Assembly (NCBI GenBank): GCA_041486085.1
Contig: JBGPKU010000004.1
Location: 3,231 to 67,230 of the forward strand
Direction: 5' to 3'
Length of the DNA stretch: 64,000 nucleotides
Source: Candidatus Limnocylindria bacterium
GTDB lineage: Bacteria > Chloroflexota > Limnocylindria > P2-11E
Positions 702 to 50,001 of this stretch are shown piece after piece (within the stretch, counting starts at the first letter, position 1; the number at the start of each line of letters is the position of its first letter). Both the position numbers and the translations under genes were made by a program. The notes below the pieces were generated by a model that ran no database searches, was not told the origin of the DNA, and worked only from the letters and a program-made list of their open reading frames with translations.

Positions 702-1913
702 TCAGCGTGCCGGCTCGAACTCCTCGTCCTCCACGTCGGCCACTTCGTCTGCCGTGAGTGCGTGGACCGGCGGCGAGAAGAAGCGTTGCGCGATGGCCGT
801 CGGCACGACGGCGGACAGGATCACGACCGTCACGAGCACCGAGAACTGCGTCCGGTCGATGATCCCGGCATTCAGACCGTAGAGCGAGGCGATCGTTCCA
901 AAGGTCAGACCTGTGCTCATCAGCAAGGTCGTGTACGTGGCGTGCGGACGCAGGTAACGGAGCGCGACCGGCATGACACCGACGAACTTGAGCCCGAGCT
1001 TGACGAAGATGAAGCCCGCCATTAGCGGCACCGCGGCGGAAAGAGCGGCGAGACTCACGTTCATCCCGCCCCTGAGGAAGAAGAATGGGGTGAGGAACGA
1101 GAACGCGACCACGCGGAAGCGCCGTTTCTGCTCCGGATGTTGATCGAACACGCGCGATAGAGCGAGCCCGAGAAGGAACGCGGGCAGGACGGCGTGGCTC
1201 TTCGCCAGGTCGGCTGTCCACATGAAGAGCAGAAGCACGAAGAACGCGCCGCGGATCTCCGGCTCGATCACGCGGTCTCCGTACCGCGCGAAAAAGGGGC
1301 GCTGCAGCACGAGCATCGCGACGATCGCCGCGACCGCGACGGCTGCGAATAGGAGCAGGTACGGACTCGGCTGGATGAAGAGCAGCGAGAGGGCCAGCGC
1401 GGTGCCGAGGTCCGTGACGAAAGTGGCAGCCATGATGATCTTGCCGAGCTCCGTCCTCACAAGACCCGTCTCCACGAGGACCGCGTACACGACGGCAAGA
1501 GAGGTCGTCGACAGTGCGATCCCCGCGATCTCCGCCTGGCGCAGATCCCAGCCGGCGACGTAGAAAGCGAACAGGCCGGCGCCGATGAAGGGCAGGAGGA
1601 AGGACACCCCGCCGATCAGGATCGACTCCTTCGCCTTTGCCCGGATGATCGCGGGATCGACCTCGGCGCCGGCGAGGAACGTCAGGACGATCCCGGCGAA
1701 CGACGCGACGAAGTCCATCCACGCGGGGCTGGCCATGCCGAACACGTTGCCGGCGATGACCCCGGCGGCGATCTCGATGATCGCGACCGACAGCGCGAGC
1801 TCGATGCTGACCATCGAGGCGATGAGGACGAGCAGCGCGAGGACAGTGGCGACGAGCAGCGGATCCATGCGTACCTCCACCGGTCTGTTCGATCGGTAGA
1901 GGTCATCAGCCAC
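702..1913 (-). CDS. Cation:proton antiporter (CPA1/CPA2, Na+/H+ exchanger family)
   Basis: About 400 aa, 11-12 predicted TM helices, sequence typical of KefB/NhaP-type exchangers; the true start may be the internal MDPLL. Confidence 0.8.
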   Translation of the reverse strand: MADDLYRSNRPVEVRMDPLLVATVLALLVLIASMVSIELALSVAIIEIAAGVIAGNVFGMASPAWMDFVASFAGIVLTFLAGAEVDPAIIRAKAKESILIGGVSFLLPFIGAGLFAFYVAGWDLRQAEIAGIALSTTSLAVVYAVLVETGLVRTELGKIIMAATFVTDLGTALALSLLFIQPSPYLLLFAAVAVAAIVAMLVLQRPFFARYGDRVIEPEIRGAFFVLLLFMWTADLAKSHAVLPAFLLGLALSRVFDQHPEQKRRFRVVAFSFLTPFFFLRGGMNVSLAALSAAVPLMAGFIFVKLGLKFVGVMPVALRYLRPHATYTTLLMSTGLTFGTIASLYGLNAGIIDRTQFSVLVTVVILSAVVPTAIAQRFFSPPVHALTADEVADVEDEEFEPAR

Positions 1914-1986
1914 CCGAAGGGCAGCGGTTGAAGGCGGACCTCATCGCCCGGAGGACGATGCTAATCGAGACGGCGGAGCCGCATCC

Positions 1987-13398: not shown

Positions 13399-14394
13399 CT
13401 AGCCTGCTGCGTCGAGCAGCGTGCGCTCGATGAGACCGGCTGCGACGTCGACCTTGTAGGAGTTCAGGCTCATCGGACGGGCCACGGTGCGGATCTGCGC
13501 CGCAGCGGCCTTCGCCGTCGCCTTGATGTCCTTGCCCTTGAGGGCGTCCTCGACGACCTTGGCACGGTAGGGCACCGGTGAGACGCCGCCGAGGGTGACG
13601 CGGCCGTCCTTCCAGTTGCCGCCGTCCATGGTGAAGGCCACGGCCACGGAGATCAGAGCGAAGTCGTAGACCTGCCGGTCCTTGAGCTTGCTCCAGCCGA
13701 ACTTCGTTCCCGACGCCGGGGCCGGAATGGTGACGTGGGTCATGAACTCACCGGGCTTGAGGACGTTCTCGCGGAGGACATCCACGCGTGGTCCGGTGAA
13801 GTAGTCGTCGAACGCGACCGTCTTGTCGCCATTTGCGCCCGTGATCTTCGCGGAGGCGCCCAGGGCGAGCAGCGCGGTCGACGTGTCGGAGGGGTGGACG
13901 ATGTAGCAGAGCTCGCCACCGATGATCGCGTGGTAGCGGTTGTCACCGGTAACGGCGTAGCAGAAGTCGCCGCCCTTCTTGTAGCAGTTGAAGTCCTCGC
14001 CCCGGAAGAACCAGCAGCGCGGTCGCTGGTTGATGTTCCCTCCGAGCGTGCCGAAGTTGCGGATGAGCGGTGAGGCGACGCTCTGCGCCGCCTGCCCGAG
14101 CAGACCGAACTTGTCCTGGACGACCTTGTTGTCGATGACGTCGGTCAGCGTGGTGGCCGCGCCGATCGTGAGCGAGCCGCCGCTCTCGCTGATCCCGACC
14201 ATGTCCTTGATCGTGGTGATGTCCACCAGCACCTCAGGGATCGCGAGTCCGTTGCCGTGGACCCAGTCCTTCATGAGGCCACCGACGAGATCGCTGCCGC
14301 CCGCGACCACGCGGGCATTCTTCGCGGCGTTCGCCTTCAGGAGGTCAACGGCTTCTTTGATCGTGTTCGCGTCGTACAGCTCAAACGCTCTCAT
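13399..14394 (-). CDS. FAD-binding subunit, xanthine dehydrogenase family, cluster 2 (PaoB-like)
   Basis: 331 aa; AGGSDL and GTLGGN motifs. Confidence 0.9.
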   Translation of the reverse strand: MRAFELYDANTIKEAVDLLKANAAKNARVVAGGSDLVGGLMKDWVHGNGLAIPEVLVDITTIKDMVGISESGGSLTIGAATTLTDVIDNKVVQDKFGLLGQAAQSVASPLIRNFGTLGGNINQRPRCWFFRGEDFNCYKKGGDFCYAVTGDNRYHAIIGGELCYIVHPSDTSTALLALGASAKITGANGDKTVAFDDYFTGPRVDVLRENVLKPGEFMTHVTIPAPASGTKFGWSKLKDRQVYDFALISVAVAFTMDGGNWKDGRVTLGGVSPVPYRAKVVEDALKGKDIKATAKAAAAQIRTVARPMSLNSYKVDVAAGLIERTLLDAAG

Positions 14395-14409
14395 CTCATA
14401 TCCCTCCTT

Positions 14410-16890: not shown

Positions 16891-16901
16891 TTCTACCCCT
16901 C

Positions 16902-17891
16902 CTACCTGGCCGCGTGGCCGAGATCGGACAAGATGCCCCGCACCTTGGTCTCGTCCAGCTTTGCCGGGTCCCACTTCACGGTGACGCTGCGCTCGCTACC
17001 AGTGATGGCAAGGATGCCGTCGCGCTTCTTGAGCTGCTCGGCGAATGGATCGAAGTCCTCGATCGTCCCGAGCGGGCTGGCGAACGTGAACTCCTTCGAG
17101 ACACCGACGGCGGTCGGCGAGGCGTCCTTGACGCCCGTGGCATTGACCACGATCGGCGACGCGAGGTAGGTCACCTTCTCTCCGCGCATCTCGGCGGCGG
17201 CCGTGTTCACGGCCTTGTACATCTTCGCGTACTCACCACAACGGCAGATGTTGCCGGCCAGTCCCTCCTGGATCTGGACGGTGGTCGGCTTGGGGAACGC
17301 GGCGAGGAGCGCGACGGTCGACATGATGAAACCGCGCGTGCAGATGCCGCACTGGAATCCACCGTCGAGCCAGAACGCTCGCTGCACCGGATGCAGACCC
17401 GCGACGCCGGGGCCCGTTGGCAGGCTCGCGACCGTCGTCACCTTCTGACCGCGGCCGAGGCGCGCGCTCAGGATCGTGCAGCTGTTCATCGGCTTGCCGT
17501 CGACATTCACCGCGCATGCGCCGCATTGCGCGCGGTCGCACCCGAGGTTGCTGTTGTTGAGGCCGAGCTGGAAGTTCATCGTCTCCCAGAGGCTCTCTCG
17601 ATTGTCGACGACGACATCGTGTTTGGTGCCGTCGATGTTCAGCGTCACGCGCCGCGACGTCGCGGCGATCGGACCGGTGACCGCCGTGGTCGTCGCCGGC
17701 TTATCGGGATTGACGACCTTGTTGACGACGACCGCTCCGCCGAGGACCGCGCCGGTCGCAGCAGCGCCGGCACCGGCTCCGATGAGAAAGCTGCGTCGCG
17801 TGATCGAGAACGATCGTTTCTCTTCCGCTGGTTCGATGCTCGTACCCGTCCCTGGTGAAGTGGCTCCTCCTTGATCGTCTGCCACGGACAC
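16902..17891 (-). CDS. Tat-exported [2Fe-2S] subunit, xanthine dehydrogenase family, cluster 2 (PaoA-like), with about 95-aa C-terminal extension
   Basis: RRSFLIGAGAGAAATGAV twin-arginine signal; CDRAQCGACAV plus CGICTRG...CRCGEY [2Fe-2S] motifs; extra C-terminal domain ...KWDPAKLDETKVRGILSDLGH. Confidence 0.85.
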   Translation of the reverse strand: MSVADDQGGATSPGTGTSIEPAEEKRSFSITRRSFLIGAGAGAAATGAVLGGAVVVNKVVNPDKPATTTAVTGPIAATSRRVTLNIDGTKHDVVVDNRESLWETMNFQLGLNNSNLGCDRAQCGACAVNVDGKPMNSCTILSARLGRGQKVTTVASLPTGPGVAGLHPVQRAFWLDGGFQCGICTRGFIMSTVALLAAFPKPTTVQIQEGLAGNICRCGEYAKMYKAVNTAAAEMRGEKVTYLASPIVVNATGVKDASPTAVGVSKEFTFASPLGTIEDFDPFAEQLKKRDGILAITGSERSVTVKWDPAKLDETKVRGILSDLGHAAR

Positions 17892-18132
17892 ACCCCCTCC
17901 GGCGCGTTAGCGGAGAGAAATTAGCACCCACGAGAAGGGGGCAGGCCTTTCCGCTGGGTGGCAGGCGACCAGCACCGTTCGAGGGACTGCTGGTCAGACC
18001 AGAGCGGCTTCGTGCCAATTTGGGTATCGGGCCCTCAGGGTCGGTCGCGCACCGCGGTGTCCGCCGACAGCTCTGCTCAGATTTCCCGGTTTTCCTCACC
18101 GTTTCGGGGTCTCGGGCCTATTCTCAGGCGAC

Positions 18133-19239
18133 ATGCGGGAGATCTACCGGCGGATGGCGGAGCTCGAGCGCGAAGGGCGCCGCTTCGCGGTGTGCACCGT
18201 CGTGCGCACGGTCGGCAGCACGCCCCAGGTCGTCGGAGCGAAGCTGCTGGTCGACGATCTCGGTCGCCTCTCCGGCACGCTCGGCGGTGGGTGCGTCGAG
18301 GGTGACGCTTTCGTCGAAGCCAAGCGGGTCATCGAGACCGGTGATCTCTCGCTTCGGGAGTACGAGCTCACCGAGGACCTGGCCTGGGACACCGGGCTGG
18401 TGTGCGGCGGGACGATGTGGATCGCGATCGAGCCGGGCGAGCGCGCGCTGCGTCTTGGCGGCCGCGATCTCCTGGGCGACGTGCTCGCCGCATCGTCGGG
18501 CGGCAAGCCGGTCGCGGTCGCGACGCTCTTCAAGCGTCAGGGACGCGAGCTCGAGCCGGAGGGCAAGCTGTTCATCGAGACGGATGGCTCGACGCATGGC
18601 AGCCTGGGCGGTCGCGACGTGCAGGCGCGGGCTGCCGCGCTCGACGCCCTGCGCCACGGCACGGCGCGGACCATCGCCCTCGACGAGGAGCACGAGCTCC
18701 TGGTGGAGCCGGTTCTCGCGAAGCCGCGCCTCGTCGTCGCGGGAGGGGGCCATGTCGGCCTCGCGCTCGCGAAGATGGCCGCGATGCTCGAGTACGACGT
18801 CACGGTCATCGACGATCGGCCTGAGTTCTCCGCGCGGGAGCGATTCGGCCCCGGCATCGACGTGATGAGCATGGACATGGCCGACGCGCTGCGCACGATG
18901 CCGATGGGCTGGAACACTTTTGTCGTCATCGCATCCCGCGGCCACAAGCTCGACGCGCACTGCTTGCGCGAGGCAGTGAAACGAGAGGCGCGCTACGTCG
19001 GTCTGCTCGGGAGCAAGCGCAAGACGGTGCTCATCGCGAAGATGCTTCGGGCGGAGGGCATCCCCGAAGAGCGGATCCGAGCGGTGCATGCACCCATCGG
19101 CCTGGATCTCGGCGGCCGCACGCCATCGGAGATCGCGCTCTCGGTGCTGTCCGAGATGAGCATGGAGCGTCATGGCGGGACCGGTCGCCCGCTTCGGCTC
19201 CCGGATGCGACCCTCGATCGGACCGCCGCGAAGGCGTGA
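18133..19239 (+). CDS. xdhC: XdhC/CoxI-family molybdenum cofactor insertion chaperone
   Basis: 368 aa; XdhC N-terminal domain plus Rossmann-like domain (VVAGGGHVG); divergent from cluster 2. Confidence 0.85.
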   Translation: MREIYRRMAELEREGRRFAVCTVVRTVGSTPQVVGAKLLVDDLGRLSGTLGGGCVEGDAFVEAKRVIETGDLSLREYELTEDLAWDTGLVCGGTMWIAIEPGERALRLGGRDLLGDVLAASSGGKPVAVATLFKRQGRELEPEGKLFIETDGSTHGSLGGRDVQARAAALDALRHGTARTIALDEEHELLVEPVLAKPRLVVAGGGHVGLALAKMAAMLEYDVTVIDDRPEFSARERFGPGIDVMSMDMADALRTMPMGWNTFVVIASRGHKLDAHCLREAVKREARYVGLLGSKRKTVLIAKMLRAEGIPEERIRAVHAPIGLDLGGRTPSEIALSVLSEMSMERHGGTGRPLRLPDATLDRTAAKA

Positions 19240-21209: not shown

Positions 21210-21764
21210 TCAGGGCCCGCACTGTTGGCGCGTCACGTAGGCTTGCGCGTCCTGCTGGTAGGAGAGCCACATCGTCTTGATGTAGGCGAGCACATCGTTG
21301 ATCTCCGCGTCGGAGAGCTTGTCCTTGAACGCGAGCATCTTCGGCGCGCCCGGAGGAGCCATCATGTCGCGCATCGCCGCGGTCATCTCGTCGCCGCCAT
21401 CGCGGATGATCTGCTTCAGTTCGCATTCGGGGTGGTTCCAGGTATGGCCGTTGGAGTTGTGGCGCGGCGGGTAATCCGCCATCCCGCCTCCGCTCGGGCC
21501 GCCATGGCAGCTCGCGCAGCTCGCGTAATAGAGCACCTGGCCGCGTAGCTCCCGCGCGCTGAAGCTGGTCCTCGGTCGAGTGTCATCAATCGAGACGGGC
21601 GCCGCGAACCAGTTGAGACGCCAGCCGATCACCAGCCCGATCGCCACGATGACGGCAACGCCAGCGACGAACCCGAGGGCCGCGGCGAGACGCTTCGGAC
21701 GTTGACCCTGCGCGTCCGGCGCATCCATCGACGGGCAATGTAGTACGGGTGCGCCCACTACCAT
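21210..21764 (-). CDS. Membrane-anchored class I cytochrome c
   Basis: N-terminal TM helix; single CASCH heme motif; distal Met region; start may be the internal MDAPD (would end at 21728). Confidence 0.75.
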   Translation of the reverse strand: MVVGAPVLHCPSMDAPDAQGQRPKRLAAALGFVAGVAVIVAIGLVIGWRLNWFAAPVSIDDTRPRTSFSARELRGQVLYYASCASCHGGPSGGGMADYPPRHNSNGHTWNHPECELKQIIRDGGDEMTAAMRDMMAPPGAPKMLAFKDKLSDAEINDVLAYIKTMWLSYQQDAQAYVTRQQCGP

Positions 21765-21770
21765 CGGGCT

Positions 21771-22100
21771 GTGGGCCTGACCGTCTCACGTCGGCGCTTG
21801 CTCGTCCTATCAGCCGGCGCGGTCGTCACATCCTGCGCGCCTCGGTTCGACCGCCCGGGCGACGCTCTCGTCCAGCTCTACGCGAGTCCGTCGAAGAACG
21901 AGTGGCCTCCGGAGTTCCTCCAGCTGCCGGCTGAGACGCAAGCGATGTATCGGTACGCGGCTGCCAACGAGGCGACGCTGCAGTGGTTCCCCTGTTACTG
22001 CGGCTGCGTCGCGGCAGGTCACCGTTCGAACTTCGACTGCTACGTCCGCGAGGTGCTGCCGGACGGACGGATCCGCCTGGACACGATGAGCTTTGGCTGA
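21771..22100 (+). CDS. Tat lipoprotein with PCYCGC motif (putative metal/redox-binding), conservative ORF to the first TGA
   Basis: SRRRLLVLSAGAVVTSC Tat plus lipobox; motif WFPCYCGCVAAGH; ends at TGA 22098-22100 (see the next feature). Confidence 0.65.
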   Translation: MGLTVSRRRLLVLSAGAVVTSCAPRFDRPGDALVQLYASPSKNEWPPEFLQLPAETQAMYRYAAANEATLQWFPCYCGCVAAGHRSNFDCYVREVLPDGRIRLDTMSFG

Positions 22101-31910: not shown

Positions 31911-32705
31911 TCAGCTCGGCTCGAGCACCACGGTCGCGATCCGTCGCCTGGTGCGTGTCTCGTAGACAGCGTACGCGTCGTCCTCACGCTTGACCCGAGT
32001 CCACAGGCGTTCCCGCTCCTCGCCCTCCGCCTCGCGGGCGCGCACGTGATGTCTCTGCGCGCCGATCTGGATGTCGGCCTCGCCCGCCTCGCGCAGGTTC
32101 AACCACCACGGCGGCTCGCGAGCCTCCCCGGCGTGCGACGCGAACACGACGTAGCGGCCGGAGTCCTCAAGGTAATTGAGCGCGACGGTCCGCGGCTCGC
32201 CGCTCCTCCGTCCTTTGATCGTGAGGAGGAGCACCGGCAGCGGGCCGAGCCGTCCGCCGATGCGTCCGCCGCTGAGGCGATACAGAAGGAGGTGAACCAT
32301 CCAGATGAGCTCGGTCACCGGTGTGCGGCGAACGGCGGTCATCGCTTCTTTCCTGTCGCGACCTGCGCGTATCCATCGTTGATGATGCGCTCGATAGTCG
32401 GGATCCGCGTCGAGGATGATGCCGACCCAACCGCGATAGCCGACATACGGCGGCACGTAGAAGTGCCGGGGATCGCTGCGCACGAGCAGGTCCTGCGCCC
32501 CGAGCGGCGCGGCGACCCAGGCCGAATAGTGCGTCGCGCCATGGTGAAAGGTGTCCATGTTCAGGAAGGACTTCTCTACCTTGTAGAAGAACGCGGACTC
32601 ACCGTGGCTGAGGCGCTCGCTGGTCTCGGGCAGCGCGAGACAGATCTTCCGCACCTTCGCGAGGAGGCGCGCCTGTTCTCGTGCGGGCAGCTGTGCCGCG
32701 GTCAT
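31911..32705 (-). CDS. Fusion protein: N-terminal MmcQ/YjbR-like domain plus C-terminal deazaflavin(F420)-dependent nitroreductase-family (Ddn-like) domain
   Basis: Single 264-aa frame with no internal stop; C-terminal half has the PPWWLNL motif of the Ddn/DUF385 family. Confidence 0.55.
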   Translation of the reverse strand: MTAAQLPAREQARLLAKVRKICLALPETSERLSHGESAFFYKVEKSFLNMDTFHHGATHYSAWVAAPLGAQDLLVRSDPRHFYVPPYVGYRGWVGIILDADPDYRAHHQRWIRAGRDRKEAMTAVRRTPVTELIWMVHLLLYRLSGGRIGGRLGPLPVLLLTIKGRRSGEPRTVALNYLEDSGRYVVFASHAGEAREPPWWLNLREAGEADIQIGAQRHHVRAREAEGEERERLWTRVKREDDAYAVYETRTRRRIATVVLEPS

Positions 32706-32711
32706 TCGCGG

Positions 32712-34765: not shown

Positions 34766-35740
34766 TCAGGCGGTGACGAGCGAGCGGAGCGCGCGGCGCA
34801 CGAGCTCCCGCGCAAGCGTGACCTTATAGCCGTTGTCCCGCAGCGGCTGCGCGCCGTCGAGCAGCGCGTCCGCGGCCAAAAGACAGGCGTTGTCGTCGAG
34901 CGCGGTGCCCTCGAGCAGCTTCTCGGCGGCGGGCACGCGCCATGGCACCGGCGCGACCCCGCCCAGGACCAGCCGCACGTCGGTCGCCTTCCCGTCTTTC
35001 ACACGGGCGCTCGCGGCGACCGAGACGATCGCGAAGCTCCAGGCCTTGCGTTCCATCGCCTTGAGATACGTGCCGCGGCGGTCGAGCGCCTTCTCGGGGA
35101 TGCGGACAGCGGTGATGAGCTCGCCCGCGCGGATCGAGTGCTCGCGGCGCTCGCGGCCATGCGGTGCGATGAAGAGCTCGGCCAGCTTCATGCGTCGCTT
35201 CCCAAGGCTCGAGGAGATCTCGATCTCGGCGTCGCAGGCGATGAGCGCGGGCGCGAGATCGGACGGCGAGACCATCCAGCACTCGTGCGCTCCGACGACC
35301 GCGTGATAGCGGTTCTCGCCGTCGACGGCGAAGCATCGTTTCCCGCCTTTGAGCCAGCACGGCACGCCTTCGTCGCGGAAATACCAGCAGCGGTTGCGCT
35401 GCAGCAGGTTCCCACCGACCGTGCCCATGTTCCGGATCTGCGGCGTGGCTGCGTCTCGAAGCGACTGCGGCACGATCGGCATGAGCTTCGCGAGCTCAGC
35501 GGAGTGCTCGACCACCGATAGCGGCGTGAGCGCGCCGATGCGGATGCCGCGGCCTTTCTCGCGCGCGATGCCGCGCAGGCCTGCGATGCCGGTCAGGTCC
35601 ACGAGCCGGTCGGGACGGGCGACGCCGTGACGCACCAGGGTCACCAGATCGGTGCCGCCGGCGAGCGCGATGGTCCCGTTCTTCAGCAGCTTCAGCGCTT
35701 CGGCAAGAGCCCGGGGGCGAGCGTAAGAGAAGAGGCTCAC
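34766..35740 (-). CDS. FAD-binding subunit, xanthine dehydrogenase family, cluster 3
   Basis: 324 aa; LAGGTDL and GTVGGN motifs; GTG start. Confidence 0.9.
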   Translation of the reverse strand: MSLFSYARPRALAEALKLLKNGTIALAGGTDLVTLVRHGVARPDRLVDLTGIAGLRGIAREKGRGIRIGALTPLSVVEHSAELAKLMPIVPQSLRDAATPQIRNMGTVGGNLLQRNRCWYFRDEGVPCWLKGGKRCFAVDGENRYHAVVGAHECWMVSPSDLAPALIACDAEIEISSSLGKRRMKLAELFIAPHGRERREHSIRAGELITAVRIPEKALDRRGTYLKAMERKAWSFAIVSVAASARVKDGKATDVRLVLGGVAPVPWRVPAAEKLLEGTALDDNACLLAADALLDGAQPLRDNGYKVTLARELVRRALRSLVTA

Positions 35741-35764
35741 CCGCTCACCGCCATCCCATTTGGC

Positions 35765-38059
35765 TCACGCCATGGCTCCGGCGATGGCCAGCGCCTCGAG
35801 GACACGCGCGCGGGTCATCGGCGCGTGCCGCACGCGGGCGCCGGTCGCGTTCGCGACCGCGTTGGCGACCGCGGCCGCGGTCGGGATGATCGGTGGCTCG
35901 CCGAGGCCCTTCGCGCCGAGGTTGTTCGCCTTGCGGTCCGGCGTATCGACGAATCGCACGACGATCTCCGGCGCGTCCATCGCCGTGGGGATCTCGTACC
36001 ACTCGAGGTTCGCGTTCATCACGCGGCCCAGGCCGCGGTCGACGATGCGCTCCTCGGTCAGGGCGAAACCGAGCGCCTGCATCACGCCGCCCTGCACCTG
36101 ACTCGCGGCCGTGAGCGGGTTGACGATGCGCCCGATGTCGTGCACCGCGACGATCTTCTCGACGAAGATCTCGCCGGTCCGCACGTCGACCTCGACCTGC
36201 GCGAAGTGCGCGCCGAACGTCTTTATCGCGAGGCCCGTCGGATTCGGATGGCGCAGGCCGGTGCCGACGATGGTGCTGTTCGAGAGCTTCGAGAGGATCT
36301 CCCGCAGCGGCGTGCGGGCACCCTTGCTCACGACGACGCCGCGCTCCAAGCGCAGCTCGTCCGCGCGCACTTCGAGCACCCCGCCCGCGGCGGCGAGCAG
36401 CTTCGCGCGCGCCTCGTTCGCGGCGAGGCGCACGGCCGGGCCGATGGACGCGAGCGTCACGGATCCGCCCGAGCCCGGCCCGTACGGCGCATCGGTGTCG
36501 CCGATACGAACGGTCACCTGGTCGAGGGTGAGGCCGATCTCATCGGCGCAGATCTGTGCGACCGCGGTGCGCGTCCCGGTGCCGATGTCCTGCACGCCGA
36601 CGCGGAGAACCGCGGTGCCGTCCGTTTCGAAGTGCACGTCGGCGTACGCCGGCGGCCCGCCGCCACCACCCCAGATCTGTGTCGCCATGCCGAGCCCCCG
36701 GCGGCGATGCGGCGCGGACCCGCGCATGCCTGCGGCCTTGCGCTTGCTCCAGCCGATCTCCTTCGCCCCGATGGCGTAGCAGTCCATGAGGCGCTTCAGC
36801 GTGTAGCGGTTGCCGGTGCGCGGATCGATCGCGCTCCGGGCATGTCGGCGGCGCAGCGTGAGCGGGTCGACGTTCATCGCTGCGGCGAGCTCGTCCACCG
36901 CCGACTCGAGCGCGAACGTGCCCTCGACGTAGCCCGGTGCGCGGAACGCCGACAGGGCGCCGGCGTTGGTCATCACCCGGTGCGCCGTGCTCGCGATGTT
37001 CGCGATGTCGTAGAGCGTGTTGGTGGGTCCCGTGGGATTCGCGGCCCAGCGGCCCTGGCCCGAGTTCGACCAGGACTCGTGCTCGAGCGCGACGATCCGG
37101 CCGTCCTTGCCACCGAGACGCAGGTGCTGCAGCGTCGCCGACCGGTTGCCCGCGGCGAGATTCTCCTCGCGCCGCGAGAGGATGCACCGCACCGGACGGC
37201 CAAGGCGCATGGAGAAGAGCGAGGCGTACAGCGAGTACTTGTACGTGCCCAGCTTCGCGCCGAAGCCGCCGCCCATGTACTCGCAGATGACGTGGACTTT
37301 CGCGGGGTCCATCTTCAGCGCGTTCTTGATCATGTTGCGGACTTCGAAGATGCCCTGCGTTGACTCCCAGACCGTGAGTCGATCACCATCCCACGACGCG
37401 ACCGCGCCATGCGTCTCGAGCGCGTTGTGCATCTGTGTGGAGGTGCGGTAGGTCGCCTCGACCGTGACCACGGCGTCCTTGAAACCCTTGCGCGCGTCCC
37501 CGCGCTTGTACGAGCCGGCGTCGAACACGTTCCCCTCCGGGGTCAGCTTCGGCGCCTTGTCTCGGATGGCTTCTTCGAGATCGACGACGTGCGGCAGGAT
37601 CTCGTAGTCCACCGCGATGAGTCCGAGAGCGACGCGCGCGATGTCTTCGTCGTCGGCGACGACCGCGGCAACATCGTCTCCGACGAAACGGACCTCTTCG
37701 CGGAAGATCGTCTTCTCGCTGCGGAACTCGATCTCCGGCACGTTGAATCGATGCAGGATGCCGCGCACACCGGGCAGCGCCTCGGCCTTCTTCGTGTCGA
37801 TCGCGCGCACGCGTGCGCGGGGGTAAGGGCTGCGGAGGATGAGCGCGTGCAGCATGCCCGGCAGGATCACGTCCTGCGTGTACCGCGCGGTGCCGCTCAC
37901 GCGGCTGCGGCCGTCCACCCGTGGCCGCGCGCGGCCGATCTCGCTCGAATCGGCGCCGTCCTTCGGCGCGGGAAGGTCGTTGCCCTCGACGATGACGGTC
38001 GATGTGTAGATCTCGCCCTCGAACTCATCCTTGCTCACCAGGACGCGCAGACCCGGCAT
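35765..38059 (-). CDS. Molybdopterin-binding subunit, xanthine dehydrogenase family, cluster 3
   Basis: Start moved to MPGLRV, whose ATG overlaps the stop of the upstream [2Fe-2S] gene (ATGA); about 764 aa. The listed Arg-rich N-terminus is an artefact. Confidence 0.9.
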   Translation of the reverse strand: MPGLRVLVSKDEFEGEIYTSTVIVEGNDLPAPKDGADSSEIGRARPRVDGRSRVSGTARYTQDVILPGMLHALILRSPYPRARVRAIDTKKAEALPGVRGILHRFNVPEIEFRSEKTIFREEVRFVGDDVAAVVADDEDIARVALGLIAVDYEILPHVVDLEEAIRDKAPKLTPEGNVFDAGSYKRGDARKGFKDAVVTVEATYRTSTQMHNALETHGAVASWDGDRLTVWESTQGIFEVRNMIKNALKMDPAKVHVICEYMGGGFGAKLGTYKYSLYASLFSMRLGRPVRCILSRREENLAAGNRSATLQHLRLGGKDGRIVALEHESWSNSGQGRWAANPTGPTNTLYDIANIASTAHRVMTNAGALSAFRAPGYVEGTFALESAVDELAAAMNVDPLTLRRRHARSAIDPRTGNRYTLKRLMDCYAIGAKEIGWSKRKAAGMRGSAPHRRRGLGMATQIWGGGGGPPAYADVHFETDGTAVLRVGVQDIGTGTRTAVAQICADEIGLTLDQVTVRIGDTDAPYGPGSGGSVTLASIGPAVRLAANEARAKLLAAAGGVLEVRADELRLERGVVVSKGARTPLREILSKLSNSTIVGTGLRHPNPTGLAIKTFGAHFAQVEVDVRTGEIFVEKIVAVHDIGRIVNPLTAASQVQGGVMQALGFALTEERIVDRGLGRVMNANLEWYEIPTAMDAPEIVVRFVDTPDRKANNLGAKGLGEPPIIPTAAAVANAVANATGARVRHAPMTRARVLEALAIAGAMA

Positions 38060-38541
38060 CAGGATTTCTTCGCCGCGGCGACGCCGGCGGCGACGATGTT
38101 GTTGTACGCGCCGCACCGGCAGAGATTGCCGGCGACGGCTCGGCGCACGTCGTCTTCACGCGCCGCGGGATTCGCGCGCAGCAATGCGACGACGGACATC
38201 ACCTGGCCCGGCGTACAGAAGCCGCACTGGTACGCATCGTGGTCGATGAACGCCTGCTGGACCACGTGGAGCTTCCCATCGCGCGACAATCCCTCGATCG
38301 TCTCGACGGTCCGGCCCTCGCAGGCGATCGCCAGCGTCAGGCAGGAGTAGACCGGACGGCCATCGACGATGACCGTGCACGCGCCGCAGTCTCCTTCGTT
38401 GCACACCTTCTTCGTGCCGGTGAGCCCAAGCGACTCACGGACAGTGTCGAGGAGCGAGCGATGCGGAGGGACATGCACCGTGACGTCCTGTCCGTTCACG
38501 TTGAGGGAGATATCGAGCGCGCCCGGCCCGCGGAATTGCAT
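38059..38541 (-). CDS. (2Fe-2S)-binding subunit, xanthine dehydrogenase family, cluster 3
   Basis: Start taken at MQFRGPG (may extend to 38676); CNEGDCGACTV plus CGFCTPG...CRCGAY. Confidence 0.85.
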   Translation of the reverse strand: MQFRGPGALDISLNVNGQDVTVHVPPHRSLLDTVRESLGLTGTKKVCNEGDCGACTVIVDGRPVYSCLTLAIACEGRTVETIEGLSRDGKLHVVQQAFIDHDAYQCGFCTPGQVMSVVALLRANPAAREDDVRRAVAGNLCRCGAYNNIVAAGVAAAKKS

Positions 38542-38757
38542 CTCCGACCCATCGTATCGAGGCGGGCGCTCCGATGAATTGGGCAGGGGCGACGACGCTG
38601 GGACACCGCGAGGCGTTCGCCCCGGGCACGCGCTGGCGTGCTCTTGTGTCGCGAACGGCACAGAAGGAACGTGCAACGTGCCCGTGGCGCCGCGCGGGCA
38701 TCACCGCAAGCCGCCGTATGCTCGCGTCCGACAGCGGCGGGGAGGATCCACATCGGT

Positions 38758-47285: not shown

Positions 47286-47297
47286 TCAGATGATTGA
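47284..47297. promoter_or_regulatory. Palindrome CAATCA-ga-TGATTG in the divergent TetR / Ddn-like intergenic region (candidate TetR operator)
   Basis: Perfect 6-bp arms overlapping the TetR start. Confidence 0.3.
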
Positions 47298-47334
47298 ATC
47301 ACAGGAGGTCTCCGAGCGCAACGGAGGTATCTCA

Positions 47335-47730
47335 ATGGCACGCACAGTACGACGACTCACACGTGCTCTGAATCCGATGCTCATGGGTCTCGCGTCCAGT
47401 GGATGGATCCCCGTGTGGGCTCTCGTCACGCACGTCGGCCGGCGATCGGGTCGCGTGTACCGGACGCCGATCGCGATCCGTCCGACCGCGTCAGGGTTCG
47501 TGATCCCGCTTCCCTGGGGCGACGGCACCGACTGGTGCCGCAACCTGATCGCGGCGAACGGCGGCGTCGTCCGCTGGAAGGGCGCCGATTACCCGGTCGT
47601 CGCGCCGGAGGTCGTGGAGCGTTCGGTGGCCGCACCGGCATTCCCAGCTGCGCTTCGTGCGCTGCTGCCGGTGCTCGGGATCAAGCGTTTCCTCGCGGTG
47701 CATCGCGTCGACGCGGCGCCGGTCGCGTAG
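47335..47730 (+). CDS. Deazaflavin (F420H2)-dependent nitroreductase-family oxidoreductase (Ddn-like, DUF385)
   Basis: Start at the internal MARTV; N-terminal pattern of the Ddn family (RTPIAIRPTASGFVIPLPWG). Confidence 0.7.
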   Translation: MARTVRRLTRALNPMLMGLASSGWIPVWALVTHVGRRSGRVYRTPIAIRPTASGFVIPLPWGDGTDWCRNLIAANGGVVRWKGADYPVVAPEVVERSVAAPAFPAALRALLPVLGIKRFLAVHRVDAAPVA

Positions 47731-47766: not shown

Positions 47767-48438
47767 TCAGCGCAGGTACAGGAGAGCGGTCGGCAGGTTC
47801 GCGGCCAGATCCCACAAGCCGACCGCGATGAGGACGGCGCCCGCGATGCGCGAGACCACGCGTTGATGATGCGTGAAGAGCCGCAGCAGCGCACGCTGCC
47901 TGCCTTCGGCCGCGAGCGAGATCAAGAGAAGCGGCACACCGAAGCCGAGGCCGAAGACGAGGAAGAACAGCATCTTCTCGGCGAACGACACGACGCCGAT
48001 CGAAAGCGTGAAGATGGCCACGAGGAGCGCGCCGGAGCATGGGAGCGCGATCGGCCCGTACATCAGGCCGTAGGCGAACGCCGACCGCGCGCGCGAGCCG
48101 CCCGTCGTCGCGCCCGCGAGAACAGGTAGCCGCGAGAACGGATCGAGGCCGATCAGCAACGCACCTCCGAGCGCGACGACCGCCAGGTCCGCGAGGGGCG
48201 TCACGATGACGAGCACCCTGCCGATCGCGACCGAGAGCGCCGCGATGAGCGCACCGAGCGCGACCATCATCGTGAGCACGCCGCCGAGGACATAGACCCC
48301 GAGCCAGCGCGCGGATCCGCGCTCTCCCGCGCCTCCCGCCGCGAGGTACGCGAGGAAGCCGGGATAGAGCGGGAGCGCGCACGGAGAGAACGTCGCGAGG
48401 AGGCCGATGCCGAAGGCAGCGCCCAGCTGCTCGAGCAC
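47767..48438 (-). CDS. ccdA: Cytochrome c biogenesis thiol-disulfide transporter CcdA (DsbD beta-domain family)
   Basis: TFSPCALP and LPCSGALL paired Cys motifs in 6 TM helices. Confidence 0.85.
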   Translation of the reverse strand: MLEQLGAAFGIGLLATFSPCALPLYPGFLAYLAAGGAGERGSARWLGVYVLGGVLTMMVALGALIAALSVAIGRVLVIVTPLADLAVVALGGALLIGLDPFSRLPVLAGATTGGSRARSAFAYGLMYGPIALPCSGALLVAIFTLSIGVVSFAEKMLFFLVFGLGFGVPLLLISLAAEGRQRALLRLFTHHQRVVSRIAGAVLIAVGLWDLAANLPTALLYLR

Positions 48439-49067
48439 TAGCGGTATCGCTGGACGGCTTGACCGAGCTCGCCGGCGCTCTTGTGCCCGAAGGCGAGCAG
48501 ATGTGTCGCGCCACGCGGATCGAGCAGGAACATCGGCTCCGACGGCTGCGTCAGGAACTGCGTGCCGAACACGTCACCGAGCTCGCGCAGGACGTCACGC
48601 GGTGCGAGTGCGAAGCGCCACGGGAACCCCTGCTGCTCGACGTAGCGACGCAGCAGGTCGGCGTTCTCGCTCGAGTCCGTGTCGAGCGAGATCATCACGA
48701 CATCGCTGCCGAGGTTCGGGAGCGCGTCACGCACAACGAACTGTTGTGCCTTGCAGGACAGTCACCAGACCGCCATCCCGATGACGAGCACCGTCCTGCC
48801 GGGGAAGTCGGTGAGCTTGAACTGCCTGTCGTCGCGGACGTCGGTGAACACATAGGACAGGAACGCGGCCCGGGGGCTCGCGGCCACGGTCGGGGTCGAC
48901 GTCGAGGTCGCCATCGGGACAGCGGCGCCGGTGGCCACAGCGCCGGTCGCTCCTGTGCCGGTGGCCCCGGCGCCCGGCGAGACCGCGGGAGCCGCGCAGG
49001 CCGAAAGCGCGGCCACGAGGACCAAGCTCGCGACGAGCGCGCGCATGTTCACCTGTGTACGCAGCAT
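48438..49067 (-). CDS. TlpA/ResA-like thioredoxin-fold lipoprotein, candidate selenoprotein with UxxC active site (UGA at 48762-48764 read as Sec)
   Basis: ORFs 48762..49067 and 48438..48734 are in the same frame, separated only by TGA. Joined product is lipobox ALSAC ... GRTVLVIGMAVW-U-LSCK ... VVMISLDTD ... LLDPRG, i.e. a Redoxin fold with Sec at the first Cys of CxxC. SECIS-like hairpin follows. Confidence 0.6.
48731..48749 (-). other. SECIS-like stem-loop 12 nt downstream of the UGA in the TlpA-like mRNA
   Basis: mRNA GCACAAC-AGUUC-GUUGUGC: 7-bp perfect stem, 5-nt loop containing GU. Confidence 0.45.
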
Positions 49068-49080
49068 AGGTGCGCGCGGT

Positions 49081-50001
49081 TCAGGTCCCGCGAAGCTCCT
49101 GGACGATCGTCGCGAATTCGTTTATCGCTCGTCCCGGCACCGCGATGTAGCTGATCCCCAGCTCATCGCGCATCTCGCGCAGCTGCGAGCGCAGCGACGC
49201 GCGCGTGCCGTAGAGGAAGAACGGGCTTCGCACCAGCGCGTTCACGCTGCGCTTCGCGATCGTCGCCGCGGCGCGCGAGAAAGAGCGCGCACGATCCGAC
49301 ACCCCAGCGTCGAAGACCCATAGGTTCTTCTCGACGTCGCGATCGCCCGCGTACCGGTCGAAGCGCTTCACGCGCTCCCGCAGCCCGCCGATCGTCACGC
49401 TGTGTGGCCGGGGACGCCCGTTCGCGTCGATCGATGGCGCGAAACCGACGATCTCCGCGGAGCGCGCAGCGAGCTTCAGCACACGTGCTCCACCGCCTCC
49501 GATCATGAACGGAGGCCGCGGCTGCTGGACCGGCCGCGGCAGGATGCGGGTCTCGCGCATCCGGTAATAGGTGCCCGCGTGGTCGACGACGTCTTCACGG
49601 AGGAGCCGGTCGAGCAGCGGCACCGCTTCCTCGAGGCGCGCGACGCGCACCGCGGGCGGCTCGTACGCGATGCCCAGCTGCCGGTAGTCAGAAACGCTCC
49701 ACCCGGCGCCCATGCCGACCTCGACCCGTCCGCCAGAGATCGCGTCGACCGTCGCGATCTCCTTGGCGAGCATCGCCAGGTTGCGGTAGTCGTTGGAGAA
49801 CACGAACGAGCCAACGCGCATTCGCTCGGTGGCATCCGCGGCGGCCATCATCGCGGGGATCGGCGCGAGCTGCTGTCCCATGTGGTCGGTCACCAGCAGT
49901 ACGTCGTAGCCCTGTGACTCCGCATGGCGAGCGAAGTCACGCCAGCGCATTCCCCCACCCGCCCACCGGGCCGTCACGGCGAACCGAAAGAGGCGCGGCA
50001 C
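49081..50001 (-). CDS. LLM-class (luciferase-like) flavin/F420-dependent oxidoreductase
   Basis: TIM-barrel LLM sequence pattern; start may be the internal MRWRD. Confidence 0.75.
   Translation of the reverse strand: MPRLFRFAVTARWAGGGMRWRDFARHAESQGYDVLLVTDHMGQQLAPIPAMMAAADATERMRVGSFVFSNDYRNLAMLAKEIATVDAISGGRVEVGMGAGWSVSDYRQLGIAYEPPAVRVARLEEAVPLLDRLLREDVVDHAGTYYRMRETRILPRPVQQPRPPFMIGGGGARVLKLAARSAEIVGFAPSIDANGRPRPHSVTIGGLRERVKRFDRYAGDRDVEKNLWVFDAGVSDRARSFSRAAATIAKRSVNALVRSPFFLYGTRASLRSQLREMRDELGISYIAVPGRAINEFATIVQELRGT

What the first reader, a model, noticed from the sequence alone, without database searches (positions are those of the whole stretch)
48438..49067. UGA at the CxxC position of a TlpA/ResA-like lipoprotein: candidate selenoprotein (UxxC) in an operon with CcdA
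Two listed ORFs (48762..49067 and 48438..48734, minus strand) are in the same frame and separated only by one TGA. The joined product has a lipoprotein signal and then ...GRTVLVIGMAVW-[TGA]-LSCK... TlpA/ResA proteins carry W-C-x-x-C at exactly this point. The downstream half keeps Redoxin-fold features (VVMISLDTD..., GFPWRF, LLDPRG). The stop codon therefore sits on the catalytic cysteine. Twelve nt downstream the mRNA forms GCACAAC-AGUUC-GUUGUGC, a 7-bp stem with a GU-containing apical loop, which matches the bacterial SECIS geometry. The gene overlaps ccdA, its expected reductant, and follows an LLM oxidoreductase gene. A Sec-containing ResA-type cytochrome c maturation reductase would be unusual, particularly in a high-GC F420-type lineage.
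Basis: seen in the sequence. Interest (0 to 1): 0.85.

Follow-up and report, generated by a model that had tools for sequence, protein, structure and literature searches.

The report
Selenocysteine TlpA-like lipoprotein beside CcdA
The in-frame TGA is almost certainly a selenocysteine codon at the active site of an exported TlpA/ResA-like thiol-disulfide reductase paired with CcdA, which databases annotate as two "hypothetical" fragments; it is a solid new example of a known kind of bacterial selenoprotein.

Summary
On the minus strand, one TGA (48764..48762) joins two same-frame ORFs into a roughly 202-aa lipoprotein with the motif MAVW-U-LSC. The TGA aligns with the first Cys of WCxxC in TlpA and ResA. 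It is not an error or a pseudogene. Four other assemblies of the same population carry it. Seventeen distinct homologues (41-98% aa identity) have TGA at the same codon, and all 44 closest database clusters are truncated there. The Sec forms are one clade whose sister and wider family (549 hits) carry Cys. Downstream substitutions fall mainly on third codon positions. Every Sec form has a 5-8 bp hairpin with an AGUU(G)/AGGUG loop 16 or 19 nt after UGA. Its stems co-vary, it meets the published bacterial SECIS criteria, and it is absent from Cys forms. ccdA follows directly in every locus long enough to show it. The nearest genomes are Candidatus Limnocylindria (Chloroflexota). A role in cytochrome c maturation is unproven because no resB/resC lies nearby. 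The selA/selB/selD genes and tRNA-Sec could not be checked. UxxC thioredoxin-fold selenoproteins, including ResA/TlpA-like ones, are already catalogued, so this is a new member of a known kind.

The parts
48438..49046 (-). Complete TlpA/ResA-like selenoprotein gene, read through the TGA. It has about 202 codons: 94 aa, then U, then 107 aa. An alternative ATG start lies at 49067.
   Evidence: Searches give the sequence and reading frame. The family profile covers positions 6-134 of 138 in TlpA/ResA-type PDB chains, on both sides of U. Pfam hits are Redoxin and AhpC-TSA, both just below their cut-offs. The family has 549 members.
48996..49046 (-). Signal peptide ending in the lipobox L-S-A-C. 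The lipidated Cys codon is at 48998..48996. A low-complexity Ala/Thr/Pro/Gly linker follows.
   Evidence: Every Sec-form homologue with a complete N-terminus has an equivalent lipobox-like motif: VSAC, VLSC, AIGC, IVAC, AAAC, AVAC or ATSC.
48762..48764 (-). In-frame TGA, the proposed selenocysteine codon, at the first (nucleophilic) position of the W-C-x-x-C motif.
   Evidence: Searches show the codon. It aligns with the first Cys of WCVPC in TlpA 1jfu and WCKPC in ResA 4nmu. TGA sits at the same codon in 17 distinct sequences plus L043. It is identical in L037-L040.
48753..48755 (-). TGC codon for the resolving Cys of the U-x-x-C motif.
   Evidence: This Cys is invariant in all Sec and Cys forms.
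48731..48749 (-). SECIS-like hairpin. The 5' arm is GCACAAC (48749..48743), the loop is AGUUC (48742..48738) and the 3' arm is GUUGUGC (48737..48731). A 12-nt spacer separates it from UGA, and the loop begins 19 nt after UGA.
   Evidence: describe the hairpin. The bSECIS criteria come from PMC13188914. The hairpin is absent from Cys forms.
47767..48438 (-). ccdA (DsbD_TM family membrane thiol-disulfide transporter). Its GTG start overlaps the TAG stop of the selenoprotein gene (TAGTG). It is the inferred reductant of the selenoprotein.
   Evidence: Pfam PF02683 scores 7.6e-09. A DsbD_TM gene lies directly downstream in L003/L004, L007, L008, L019, L021, L037, L038, L040 and L042. The downstream ORF in L001 reads as CcdA in the sequence itself. 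A same-sized, same-strand ORF, not tested by Pfam, follows in L015-L018, L022 and L043.
49081..50001 (-). Upstream F420-dependent LLM-class oxidoreductase gene on the same strand, 34 nt before the likely start. It is probably a neighbour rather than a functional partner.
   Evidence: Pfam Bac_luciferase. NCBIfam TIGR03621 scores 285 bits, above its cut-off. LLM genes are divergent in L017 and L019 and absent in other loci.

Best explanation
The gene at 48438..49046 (minus strand) encodes one exported, lipid-anchored thioredoxin-fold protein of the TlpA/ResA type. In it the UGA at 48764..48762 is decoded as selenocysteine, giving the active site W-U-L-S-C.

Proposed decoding (inferred). The hairpin GCACAAC-AGUUC-GUUGUGC, whose loop starts 19 nt after UGA, acts as a bacterial SECIS. 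It recruits SelB-GTP-Sec-tRNA(Sec) to the ribosome paused at UGA, and translation continues through the rest of the Trx domain.

Proposed function (inferred from what is known of TlpA/ResA/CcdA systems). The protein is exported and anchored by its lipobox Cys on the outer face of the cytoplasmic membrane. The selenolate attacks disulfides in extracytoplasmic client proteins. The resulting mixed Se-S bond is resolved by the Cys three residues later, giving an intramolecular selenenylsulfide. This is re-reduced by the co-translated membrane protein CcdA, which takes electrons from cytoplasmic thioredoxin.

The clients are unknown. Apocytochrome c, Sco/CuA proteins and oxidised Met/Cys repair enzymes are all candidates.

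Shown here: the gene anatomy, the Sec/Cys pairing, conservation of the TGA, the co-varying hairpin, and the linkage to ccdA. Inferred: actual Sec insertion, electron flow, and substrate.
For: 1. The TGA aligns with the catalytic first Cys of WCxxC in TlpA and ResA and in the Cys members listed from a 549-hit family.
2. The TGA is reproduced exactly in four other assemblies: three separate sequencing runs and a second NCBI MAG. These are 99.9% identical overall, with SNPs elsewhere.
3. TGA is at the same codon in 17 distinct homologues down to 41% aa identity, including three named Candidatus Limnocylindria MAGs. All 44 closest 90%-identity clusters are 85-101-aa fragments that begin after this point.
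4. The Sec forms are monophyletic. Their sister group is Cys forms with WCP[VL]C.
5. Downstream of the TGA, differences between close pairs concentrate on codon position 3 in the same frame, for example 4/2/15, 7/0/17 and 9/4/21. The Cys at +3 is invariant.
6. All 17 Sec forms have a 5-8 bp hairpin with an AGUU(G) or AGGUG loop starting 19 or 16 nt after UGA. The stems differ (GCACAAC/GUUGUGC, GACAAC/GUUGUC, ACCAGC/GCUGGU, AUCAGC/GCUGAU, GGCGC/GCGCC, GGUCGC/GCGACU, GAGCAAC/GUUGUUC, UCACAGC/GUUGUGA). 94% of cells are paired against 20-51% for slid registers, and 2 pairs show double-sided changes. In 11 of 17, fewer than 5% of synonymous resamplings fold as well. None of the 14 distinct Cys-form sequences examined, including the two closest sisters, has a hairpin at this place.
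7. The hairpin meets all four published bSECIS constraints (PMC13188914).
8. TGA is the ordinary stop codon of 25 of 43 window genes, so the genetic code is not reassigned.
9. Two unrelated in-frame-TGA genes, each with a Sec/Cys pairing and a hairpin, lie within 5 kb of the cassette in a sister genome (L008). One is related to the curated ResA-like WAxxUGC selenoprotein family (81 bits).
10. Sec use is well documented in the phylum Chloroflexota.
Against: No Sec machinery (selA, selB, selD, tRNA-Sec) was seen. It is absent from the 64-kb window and from the flanks I fetched, and whole genomes could not be searched. There is no protein-level evidence. No Rfam family matches the hairpin, which is expected for bacterial SECIS elements. 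The hairpin loop and part of its 5' arm are encoded by the conserved Q-Q/Q-L codons, so part of its conservation is due to coding. For a few sequences the fold is not better than synonymous resamplings (L001 0.23, L006 0.40). The Pfam Redoxin and AhpC-TSA scores are just below their gathering cut-offs.
Confidence: 0.85

Rival explanations
1. UGA is read through without selenocysteine. One route is near-cognate insertion of Trp or Cys, possibly stimulated by the hairpin. Another is a SelB-like or tRNA(Sec)-like system that inserts Cys at UGA. Such systems have been reported for some bacteria; this is my recollection of Mukai et al. 2016 and was not checked here.
For: The Sec machinery was not observed. 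Conservation of the TGA, the downstream frame and the hairpin shows recoding. It does not by itself identify the inserted amino acid.
Against: The TGA sits exactly on a redox-active Cys, and the hairpin meets the bSECIS criteria, including G in the first two loop positions and the correct spacing. This is the standard signature of Sec. A sister genome has two more TGA/Cys pairs, one in a family related to a curated selenoprotein model. A clade that only needed Cys could revert TGA to TGC/TGT with one mutation, yet none of the 17 distinct sequences or 44 clusters has done so.
Confidence: 0.07
2. UGA is a true stop. The locus then makes either a truncated N-terminal lipoprotein (about 94 aa) alone, or two separate polypeptides with the C-terminal half started at an internal GTG. 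That is a genuinely split gene.
For: Gene callers annotate it this way everywhere, as two "hypothetical proteins". An in-frame GTG exists at 48734.
Against: The codons between the TGA and the first possible start are conserved as protein: x-x-C-x-x-Q-Q/L, with the Cys invariant. The position of the first in-frame start varies between homologues, from directly after the TGA in L002/L008 to 9 codons later in the window. In the window that start lies inside the hairpin arm. A C-terminal half made alone would lack a signal peptide and half of the Trx fold. The PDB profile alignment spans both sides of the TGA as one domain. The active-site motif would be cut between W and xxC.
Confidence: 0.05
3. 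The TGA is a sequencing or assembly error, or a recent inactivating mutation. The gene would then be a pseudogene of a normal Cys-type TlpA gene.
For: A single TGC-to-TGA change would produce this. The window is a single sequence.
Against: The TGA is identical in four further independent assemblies. It sits at the same codon in 17 distinct sequences that diverged to 41% aa identity, and these form a monophyletic clade. Third-position-biased substitution continues downstream. A TGA-specific co-varying hairpin is present.
Confidence: 0.02

Closest known systems
TlpA (Bradyrhizobium, PDB 1jfu/4txo) and ResA (Bacillus, PDB 4nmu/2h1b): membrane-anchored thioredoxin-fold disulfide reductases fed by CcdA/DsbD
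   Same: They share the Trx fold with the W-C-x-x-C active site at the same position. They also have an N-terminal membrane anchor or lipoprotein signal, face the extracytoplasmic side, and are genetically coupled to a DsbD_TM/CcdA gene.
   Different: The first active-site Cys is replaced by a UGA codon (Sec). Sequence similarity is remote: E = 3e-4 for the single sequence and 3e-6 to 5e-5 for the profile, and NCBIfam TlpA and ResA scores are far below their cut-offs. There are no adjacent resB/resC genes. The family has its own signature, vE.MAvW[C/U]xxCxxQQ.
[quoted passage not shown]
   Same: These are ResA/TlpA-like thioredoxin-fold proteins in which the first active-site Cys is Sec. They show that this kind of selenoprotein is already curated.
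   Different: Their motif is W-A-x-x-U-G-C (U-x-C), whereas here it is M-A-V-W-U-x-x-C. The window protein scores 21.5 bits against a cut-off of 300, so it is not a member. The second TGA gene in L008 (WASW-U-RC) is the one related to that family (81 bits).
UxxC selenoprotein families from earlier surveys: 'Thiol:disulfide interchange protein' (PF13098; Geobacter, Syntrophus), 'Prx-like thiol:disulfide oxidoreductase', and 'Redoxin family protein' / GOS 'Prx-like 3' (PF08534)
   Same: They have a UxxC redox motif in a Trx-like fold, arose from Cys forms by Cys-to-Sec conversion, and carry a bSECIS just downstream of the UGA. The Pfam domain hit here is Redoxin PF08534, as for 'Redoxin family protein / Prx-like 3'.
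   Different: PF13098 is not hit. Those families were described from Deltaproteobacteria or marine metagenomes. This clade is a lipoprotein paired with ccdA in soil and freshwater Limnocylindria. I could not test identity with the PF08534 family because no reference sequence was available.
E. coli fdhF/fdnG bacterial SECIS and the bSECIS consensus model
   Same: A hairpin lies inside the coding sequence just 3' of UGA. Its small apical loop has G followed by U within the first two or three loop positions, and the loop begins 16-19 nt after UGA (within the model's 16-37 nt). The stem is 5-8 bp.
   Different: The sequence is different, and no bulged U was identified. Binding to SelB is untested. 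The register of the hairpin shifts by 3 nt in one subclade (L003/L004/L006) and by 1 nt on the 3' arm in another (L002/L008/L024).

Membership tests
Bacterial selenoprotein gene (Sec-UGA plus bSECIS) | An in-frame UGA aligns with a conserved (redox) Cys in homologues, forming a Sec/Cys pair. | tested here: met
   The TGA aligns with the first Cys of WCxxC in TlpA and ResA and in the Cys-containing family members and loci.
Bacterial selenoprotein gene (Sec-UGA plus bSECIS) | The UGA is conserved in orthologues from other organisms, and the protein sequence is conserved on both sides of it. | tested here: met
   17 distinct sequences plus L043 carry the TGA, and 44 clusters are truncated there. 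Substitutions downstream are biased to codon position 3. The Sec clade is monophyletic.
Bacterial selenoprotein gene (Sec-UGA plus bSECIS) | A bSECIS element is present: loop 3-9 nt, stem 4-16 bp, G in the first two loop positions, 16-37 nt from UGA to the loop, and MFE <= -7.5 kcal/mol. | tested here: met
   In the window the stem is 7 bp, the loop is AGUUC, the spacing is 19 nt and the 30-nt fold is -10.7 kcal/mol. The criteria come from PMC13188914. All 17 Sec forms comply, and the stems co-vary.
Bacterial selenoprotein gene (Sec-UGA plus bSECIS) | The same genome has selA, selB, selD and tRNA-Sec. | not testable with these tools
   None is present in the 64-kb window or in the fetched flanks.
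Bacterial selenoprotein gene (Sec-UGA plus bSECIS) | Selenium is incorporated into the protein (75Se labelling or mass spectrometry). | not testable with these tools
   This needs an experiment, and the organism is known only from metagenomes.
TlpA/ResA-like extracytoplasmic thiol-disulfide reductases (Redoxin / TlpA-like family) | Thioredoxin fold with the W-C-x-x-C active site. | tested here: met
   The family profile matches 3or5, ResA 4nmu/2h1b and TlpA 1jfu over positions 6-134 of 138. However, Pfam Redoxin scores 24.0 bits against a cut-off of 26.6 and AhpC-TSA 19.5 against 26, so the protein is formally below Pfam thresholds.
TlpA/ResA-like extracytoplasmic thiol-disulfide reductases (Redoxin / TlpA-like family) | N-terminal signal or anchor that places the domain outside the cytoplasmic membrane. 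| tested here: met
   The signal peptide with lipobox LSAC is read directly from the sequence, and all complete homologues have an equivalent. No dedicated signal-peptide predictor was available.
TlpA/ResA-like extracytoplasmic thiol-disulfide reductases (Redoxin / TlpA-like family) | Coupled to a CcdA/DsbD membrane electron transporter. | tested here: met
   A DsbD_TM gene lies directly downstream with an overlapping start in the window. It is confirmed downstream in L003/L004, L007, L008, L019, L021, L037, L038, L040 and L042. A same-sized downstream ORF follows in the other long loci.
ResA proper (system II cytochrome c maturation reductase) | Genetic association with resB/resC (ccsB/ccsA), or a demonstrated role in reducing apocytochrome c. 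| tested here: not met
   No ResB/CcsA family gene lies near the cassette in the window or in L007, L008, L021, L040 or L043. NCBIfam ResA scores 17.9 bits against a cut-off of 170. The only weak hints are a cytochrome c gene elsewhere in the window and a heme-biosynthesis operon 4.5 kb downstream in L043.
NCBIfam NF041054 ResA-like WAxxUGC selenoprotein | W-A-x-x-U-G-C motif and a score above the 300-bit cut-off. | tested here: not met
   The motif here is M-A-V-W-U-L-S-C, and the score is 21.5 bits.
'Thiol:disulfide interchange protein' UxxC selenoprotein (PF13098) of Geobacter/Syntrophus | Thioredoxin_2 (PF13098) domain with UxxC. | tested here: not met
   UxxC is present, but PF13098 is not among the Pfam hits at E <= 0.01. 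The family is described.
'Redoxin family protein' UxxC selenoprotein (PF08534; GOS Prx-like 3) | Same protein family as the catalogued representative (HEU0032618.1). | not testable with these tools
   The Pfam domain and the motif are the same, but the reference sequence could not be obtained. I therefore cannot exclude that this clade is already listed.

The most novel reading that the evidence does not exclude
The genomes that carry this clade might lack the canonical selABCD system. The conserved UGA plus AGUU-loop hairpin would then be decoded some other way. One possibility is insertion of Cys or another residue by a SelB-like/tRNA(Sec)-like recoding system. Another is SelB-independent, structure-stimulated read-through. 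That would make this a conserved, non-Sec stop-codon recoding site in an exported redox enzyme of an aerobic Chloroflexota class.
Probability: 0.05. Interest if true: 0.8.

Novelty: new member of a known kind. Interest (0 to 1): 0.45.

Why it matters
1. Annotation. Every database copy I found of this gene is split into two "hypothetical protein" fragments. Joining them restores a complete active-site enzyme in a widespread soil and freshwater lineage. It also gives a clean Sec/Cys pair, with a Sec clade and a Cys sister clade, for studying Cys-to-Sec conversion.

2. Biology. The protein would be an exported, lipid-anchored selenoprotein acting as the terminal reductant of the CcdA pathway. CcdA would then have to reduce a selenenylsulfide. 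The host encodes cytochrome c, molybdenum hydroxylase and F420-dependent enzymes, which suggests an aerobic lifestyle.

3. Sec use in the class. With the two further TGA genes in L008, this indicates that Candidatus Limnocylindria uses selenocysteine. I found no paper linking the class name with selenocysteine.

4. Limits. None of this changes a concept, because UxxC thioredoxin-fold selenoproteins, including TlpA/ResA-like ones, have been catalogued since 2004-2008.

Tried and rejected
- The first homologue search used the full joined protein and returned one weak hit. I suspect the low-complexity linker swamped the word index. Repeating it with the C-terminal half worked.
- Exact look-ups of the CcdA and LLM products failed, probably because the called starts differ.
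- Rfam gave no SECIS match at gathering or permissive thresholds. The only hits were a fluoride riboswitch elsewhere and a chance lncRNA hit.
- A covariance model built from 12 Sec-form sites found all Sec sites but also weakly hit Cys forms through coding homology. It is therefore not a clean test of structure. I relied instead on direct hairpin enumeration, slid-register and shuffle controls, and synonymous resampling.
- A single-sequence fold z-score was uninformative.
- Genetic code reassignment was rejected because TGA ends 25 of 43 genes.
- A scan for other in-frame TGA genes in the window found only antisense or adjacent-gene artefacts.
- A search for the Sec machinery found nothing. 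It covered ARAGORN on the window and 14 loci and Pfam/NCBIfam on about 50 window and locus ORFs.
- Literature searches for Limnocylindria plus selenocysteine and for WAxxUGC returned nothing.
- LLM as an operon partner was rejected because it is not conserved.
Full report
**Observation**

On the minus strand, ORFs 48762..49067 and 48438..48734 share a frame, and the only stop between them is TGA at 48764..48762. The joined product reads MRALVASLVLVAALSAC...(Ala/Thr/Pro/Gly linker)...FTDVRDDRQFKLTDFPGRTVLVIGMAVW-[TGA]-LSCKAQQFVVRDALPNLGSDVVMISLDTD...QRYR.

The hairpin GCACAAC-AGUUC-GUUGUGC occupies 48749..48731, 12 nt after the TGA. The GTG that opens the "downstream ORF" lies inside its 3' arm. 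The likely true start is the ATG at 49046, which has AGGTG 5 nt upstream and is the start gene callers use in other assemblies.

The TAG stop overlaps the GTG start of a DsbD_TM/CcdA gene at 47767..48438. An F420-type LLM gene (TIGR03621 family) lies 34 nt upstream of the likely start.

**What the protein is**

As a single sequence, the mature domain matches TlpA (1jfu, E = 3e-4) and ResA (4nmu). The TGA falls on the first Cys of their WCxxC motifs. A profile of six clade members matches TlpA/ResA-type chains over positions 6-134 of 138, so one thioredoxin-fold domain spans the TGA. Pfam Redoxin and AhpC-TSA hits are just below their cut-offs.

An exhaustive phmmer search with the C-terminal half found 549 relatives. 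They share the signature vE.MAvWCxxCxxQQ, and most carry Cys. The closest hits were about 100-aa fragments that begin just after the motif.

**Is the TGA real and conserved?**

- DNA for those fragments shows W-TGA-x-x-C in every case examined: L001-L006.
- One genome scan and one metagenome scan added more loci. In total, 20 loci (17 distinct sequences, 41-98% aa identity to the window) carry TGA. Another 17 loci of more distant members carry TGC or TGT.
- The window's own allele recurs with the TGA in three independent assemblies from different sequencing runs and in a second NCBI MAG, GCA_041493985.1. These are 99.9% identical overall, with SNPs elsewhere.
- All 44 closest 90%-identity clusters in the 5.8-billion-protein collection are 85-101-aa fragments. 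The only one with an organism name is "hypothetical protein [Candidatus Limnocylindria bacterium]", and its DNA (L043) also has TGA.
- In a neighbour-joining tree the 18 distinct Sec forms are monophyletic. Their sister group is two Cys forms, WCPVC and WCPLC.
- Between close pairs, substitutions downstream of the TGA concentrate on codon position 3 in the continuing frame, for example 4/2/15, 7/0/17 and 9/4/21.
- TGA is the ordinary stop of 25 of 43 window genes.

These results exclude a sequencing error, a pseudogene and a reassigned genetic code. They also argue strongly against a genuinely split gene.

**The hairpin**

Every Sec form has a 5-8 bp stem with an AGUU, AGUUG, AGUUC or AGGUG loop. 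The loop begins 19 nt after UGA, or 16 nt in the L003/L004/L006 subclade, where the motif is Q-L-R rather than Q-Q-L-V-V. The stems differ: GCACAAC/GUUGUGC, GACAAC/GUUGUC, GAGCAAC/GUUGUUC, UCACAGC/GUUGUGA, ACCAGC/GCUGGU, AUCAGC/GCUGAU, GGUCAGC/GCUGAUC, GGCGC/GCGCC and GGUCGC/GCGACU.

Controls:
- In the largest subgroup, 94% of cells pair, against 20-51% for slid registers. Two pairs change on both sides, and 1 of 500 shuffles reaches the covariation score.
- For 11 of 17 sequences, fewer than 5% of synonymous-codon resamplings fold as well.
- None of the 14 distinct Cys-form sequences examined has a hairpin at that place. This includes the two closest Cys sisters, L041 and L042, and L042 sits in the same TlpA-ccdA cassette.
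- The element satisfies the published bSECIS constraints for loop size, stem length, G in the first two loop positions, 16-37 nt spacing and MFE (PMC13188914).
- Rfam has no matching model. This is expected for bacterial SECIS elements.

**Context and function**

The conserved unit is a two-gene cassette: the TlpA-like (U) gene followed by ccdA. ccdA is confirmed directly downstream in the window and in L003/L004, L007, L008, L019, L021, L037, L038, L040 and L042, with a small glyoxalase gene inserted in L003/L004. The downstream ORF in L001 also reads as CcdA. A same-sized, same-strand ORF follows in the remaining long loci. All homologues with complete N-termini have a signal peptide and a lipobox-like motif.

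The LLM gene is not a conserved partner. No resB/resC or ccsBA gene is near the cassette in any locus, so a role in cytochrome c maturation is possible but not shown. Two weak hints point that way. The window encodes a c-type cytochrome at 21210..21785. In L043 a heme-biosynthesis operon begins 4.5 kb downstream.

The mechanism I commit to is as follows. SelB and the SECIS direct insertion of Sec. The protein is exported and lipidated. The selenolate attacks client disulfides, and the Cys at +3 resolves the adduct to a selenenylsulfide. CcdA re-reduces this with electrons from cytoplasmic thioredoxin. The anatomy and the conservation are shown here. The chemistry and the clients are inferred from what is known of TlpA/ResA/CcdA systems.

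**Lineage and Sec trait**

The named genomes that carry the TGA form are all Candidatus Limnocylindria, a class of Chloroflexota. I could not examine selA, selB, selD or tRNA-Sec. None is in the window or the fetched flanks, and whole genomes were out of reach.

There is indirect support. In the sister genome L008, two unrelated genes within 5 kb of the cassette also have in-frame TGAs on Cys positions, each followed by a hairpin:
- A thioredoxin-fold protein, WASW-U-RC. It aligns to WCPpC of PDB 3kcm, scores 81 bits to the curated ResA-like WAxxUGC selenoprotein model, and is conserved with its TGA in L021 and L022.
- A rhodanese-CBS protein, YCWDAL-U-D. The U aligns with the second Cys of YCWGPAC in PDB 3nhv.

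Sec use is also established elsewhere in Chloroflexota.

**Comparison with what is known**

UxxC thioredoxin-fold selenoproteins have been known since 2004-2008. Examples are "Thiol:disulfide interchange protein" in Geobacter and Syntrophus, "Prx-like thiol:disulfide oxidoreductase", DsbA/DsbG-like proteins, and GOS "Prx-like 3" (PF08534). [quoted passage not shown] NCBIfam holds a ResA-like WAxxUGC model.

The window protein is not a member of the WAxxUGC family (21.5 bits against a cut-off of 300, and a different motif). It is not in the PF13098 family either. I could not test whether it equals the catalogued PF08534 family.

**Verdict**

This is a real and well-supported selenoprotein gene. 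It is currently mis-annotated as two fragments, and it is a new member of a known kind. The confidence that UGA encodes Sec is about 0.85, limited by the unverified Sec machinery. Interest is moderate at 0.45.

Noticed in passing
L008:10722-11525 (+), TGA at 10902; also L021 TGA at 5760 and L022 TGA at 3052: This is a second candidate selenoprotein in a sister Limnocylindria genome. It is a thioredoxin-fold protein, VFVWASW-TGA-RCREQLP, whose TGA aligns with the first Cys of WCPpC in PDB 3kcm. It scores 81 bits to NCBIfam NF041054 (ResA-like WAxxUGC). A hairpin GCUGCC-GGUCU-GGCAGC lies 14 nt after the UGA. A second DsbD_TM gene (L008:9493-10047, minus strand) lies divergently beside it. The 64-kb window has no homologue.
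   Followed up: partly
L008 minus strand, TGA at 5604 (gene about 5094-5810), immediately upstream of and divergent from the TlpA(U) gene: This is a third candidate selenoprotein. It is a rhodanese+CBS protein, VVVYCWDAL-TGA-DMSPRAAWRLERMGF, whose TGA aligns with the second Cys of YCWGPAC in PDB 3nhv (BH2092). A hairpin GAGCCGC-GUG-GCGGCUC lies 13 nt after the UGA. Only one example was seen.
   Followed up: partly
window:1890-1957 (-): A fluoride riboswitch (Rfam RF01734, 41.9 bits, above the gathering score) sits at the 5' end of a Na_H_Exchanger-family gene (702..1940, minus strand), rather than next to crcB or eriC.
   Followed up: no
L003, L004 and L006 compared with the other Sec-form loci (region just 3' of the TGA): In this subclade the SECIS-like hairpin is shifted 3 nt towards the UGA (loop starts at +16 instead of +19). 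The AGUU loop is there encoded by the Q-L codons instead of Q-Q-L. In L002, L008 and L024 the 3' arm register differs by 1 nt. The structure is kept while the coding sequence and the register change.
   Followed up: partly
L043:12215-20306; L007 around 14057; L016 around 7488: In part of the clade the synteny downstream of the cassette is conserved: TlpA(U)-ccdA, then a pyridine-nucleotide disulfide oxidoreductase, then tRNA-Arg(TCT). In L043 this is followed by a heme-biosynthesis operon (GlutR, PBG deaminase, HEM4, ALAD, aminotransferase, Chlor_dismutase-like). This is a weak contextual link to heme and cytochrome biogenesis.
   Followed up: no
L003:414-791 and L004:445-822: A glyoxalase/bleomycin-resistance-family gene is inserted between the TlpA(U) gene and ccdA in one subclade.
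   Followed up: no
L002:350-515: The contig diverges from all homologues after ...GFTWRFAP, and the C-terminal 55 aa are unrelated. It is probably a chimeric or misassembled short metagenome contig. I excluded this part from the alignments.
   Followed up: no
window:3400-6003 (+), 17911-19239 (+), 31911-32711 (-), 47290-47730 (+), 21210-21785 (-): The window encodes a molybdenum hydroxylase large subunit (xanthine dehydrogenase/CO dehydrogenase family), an XdhC maturation factor, two F420H2-dependent (DDN-like) reductases and a c-type cytochrome. By size and position, further ORFs at 13399-17906 and 34766-38700 look like additional clusters of the same Mo-hydroxylase type, but I did not test them.
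   Followed up: partly
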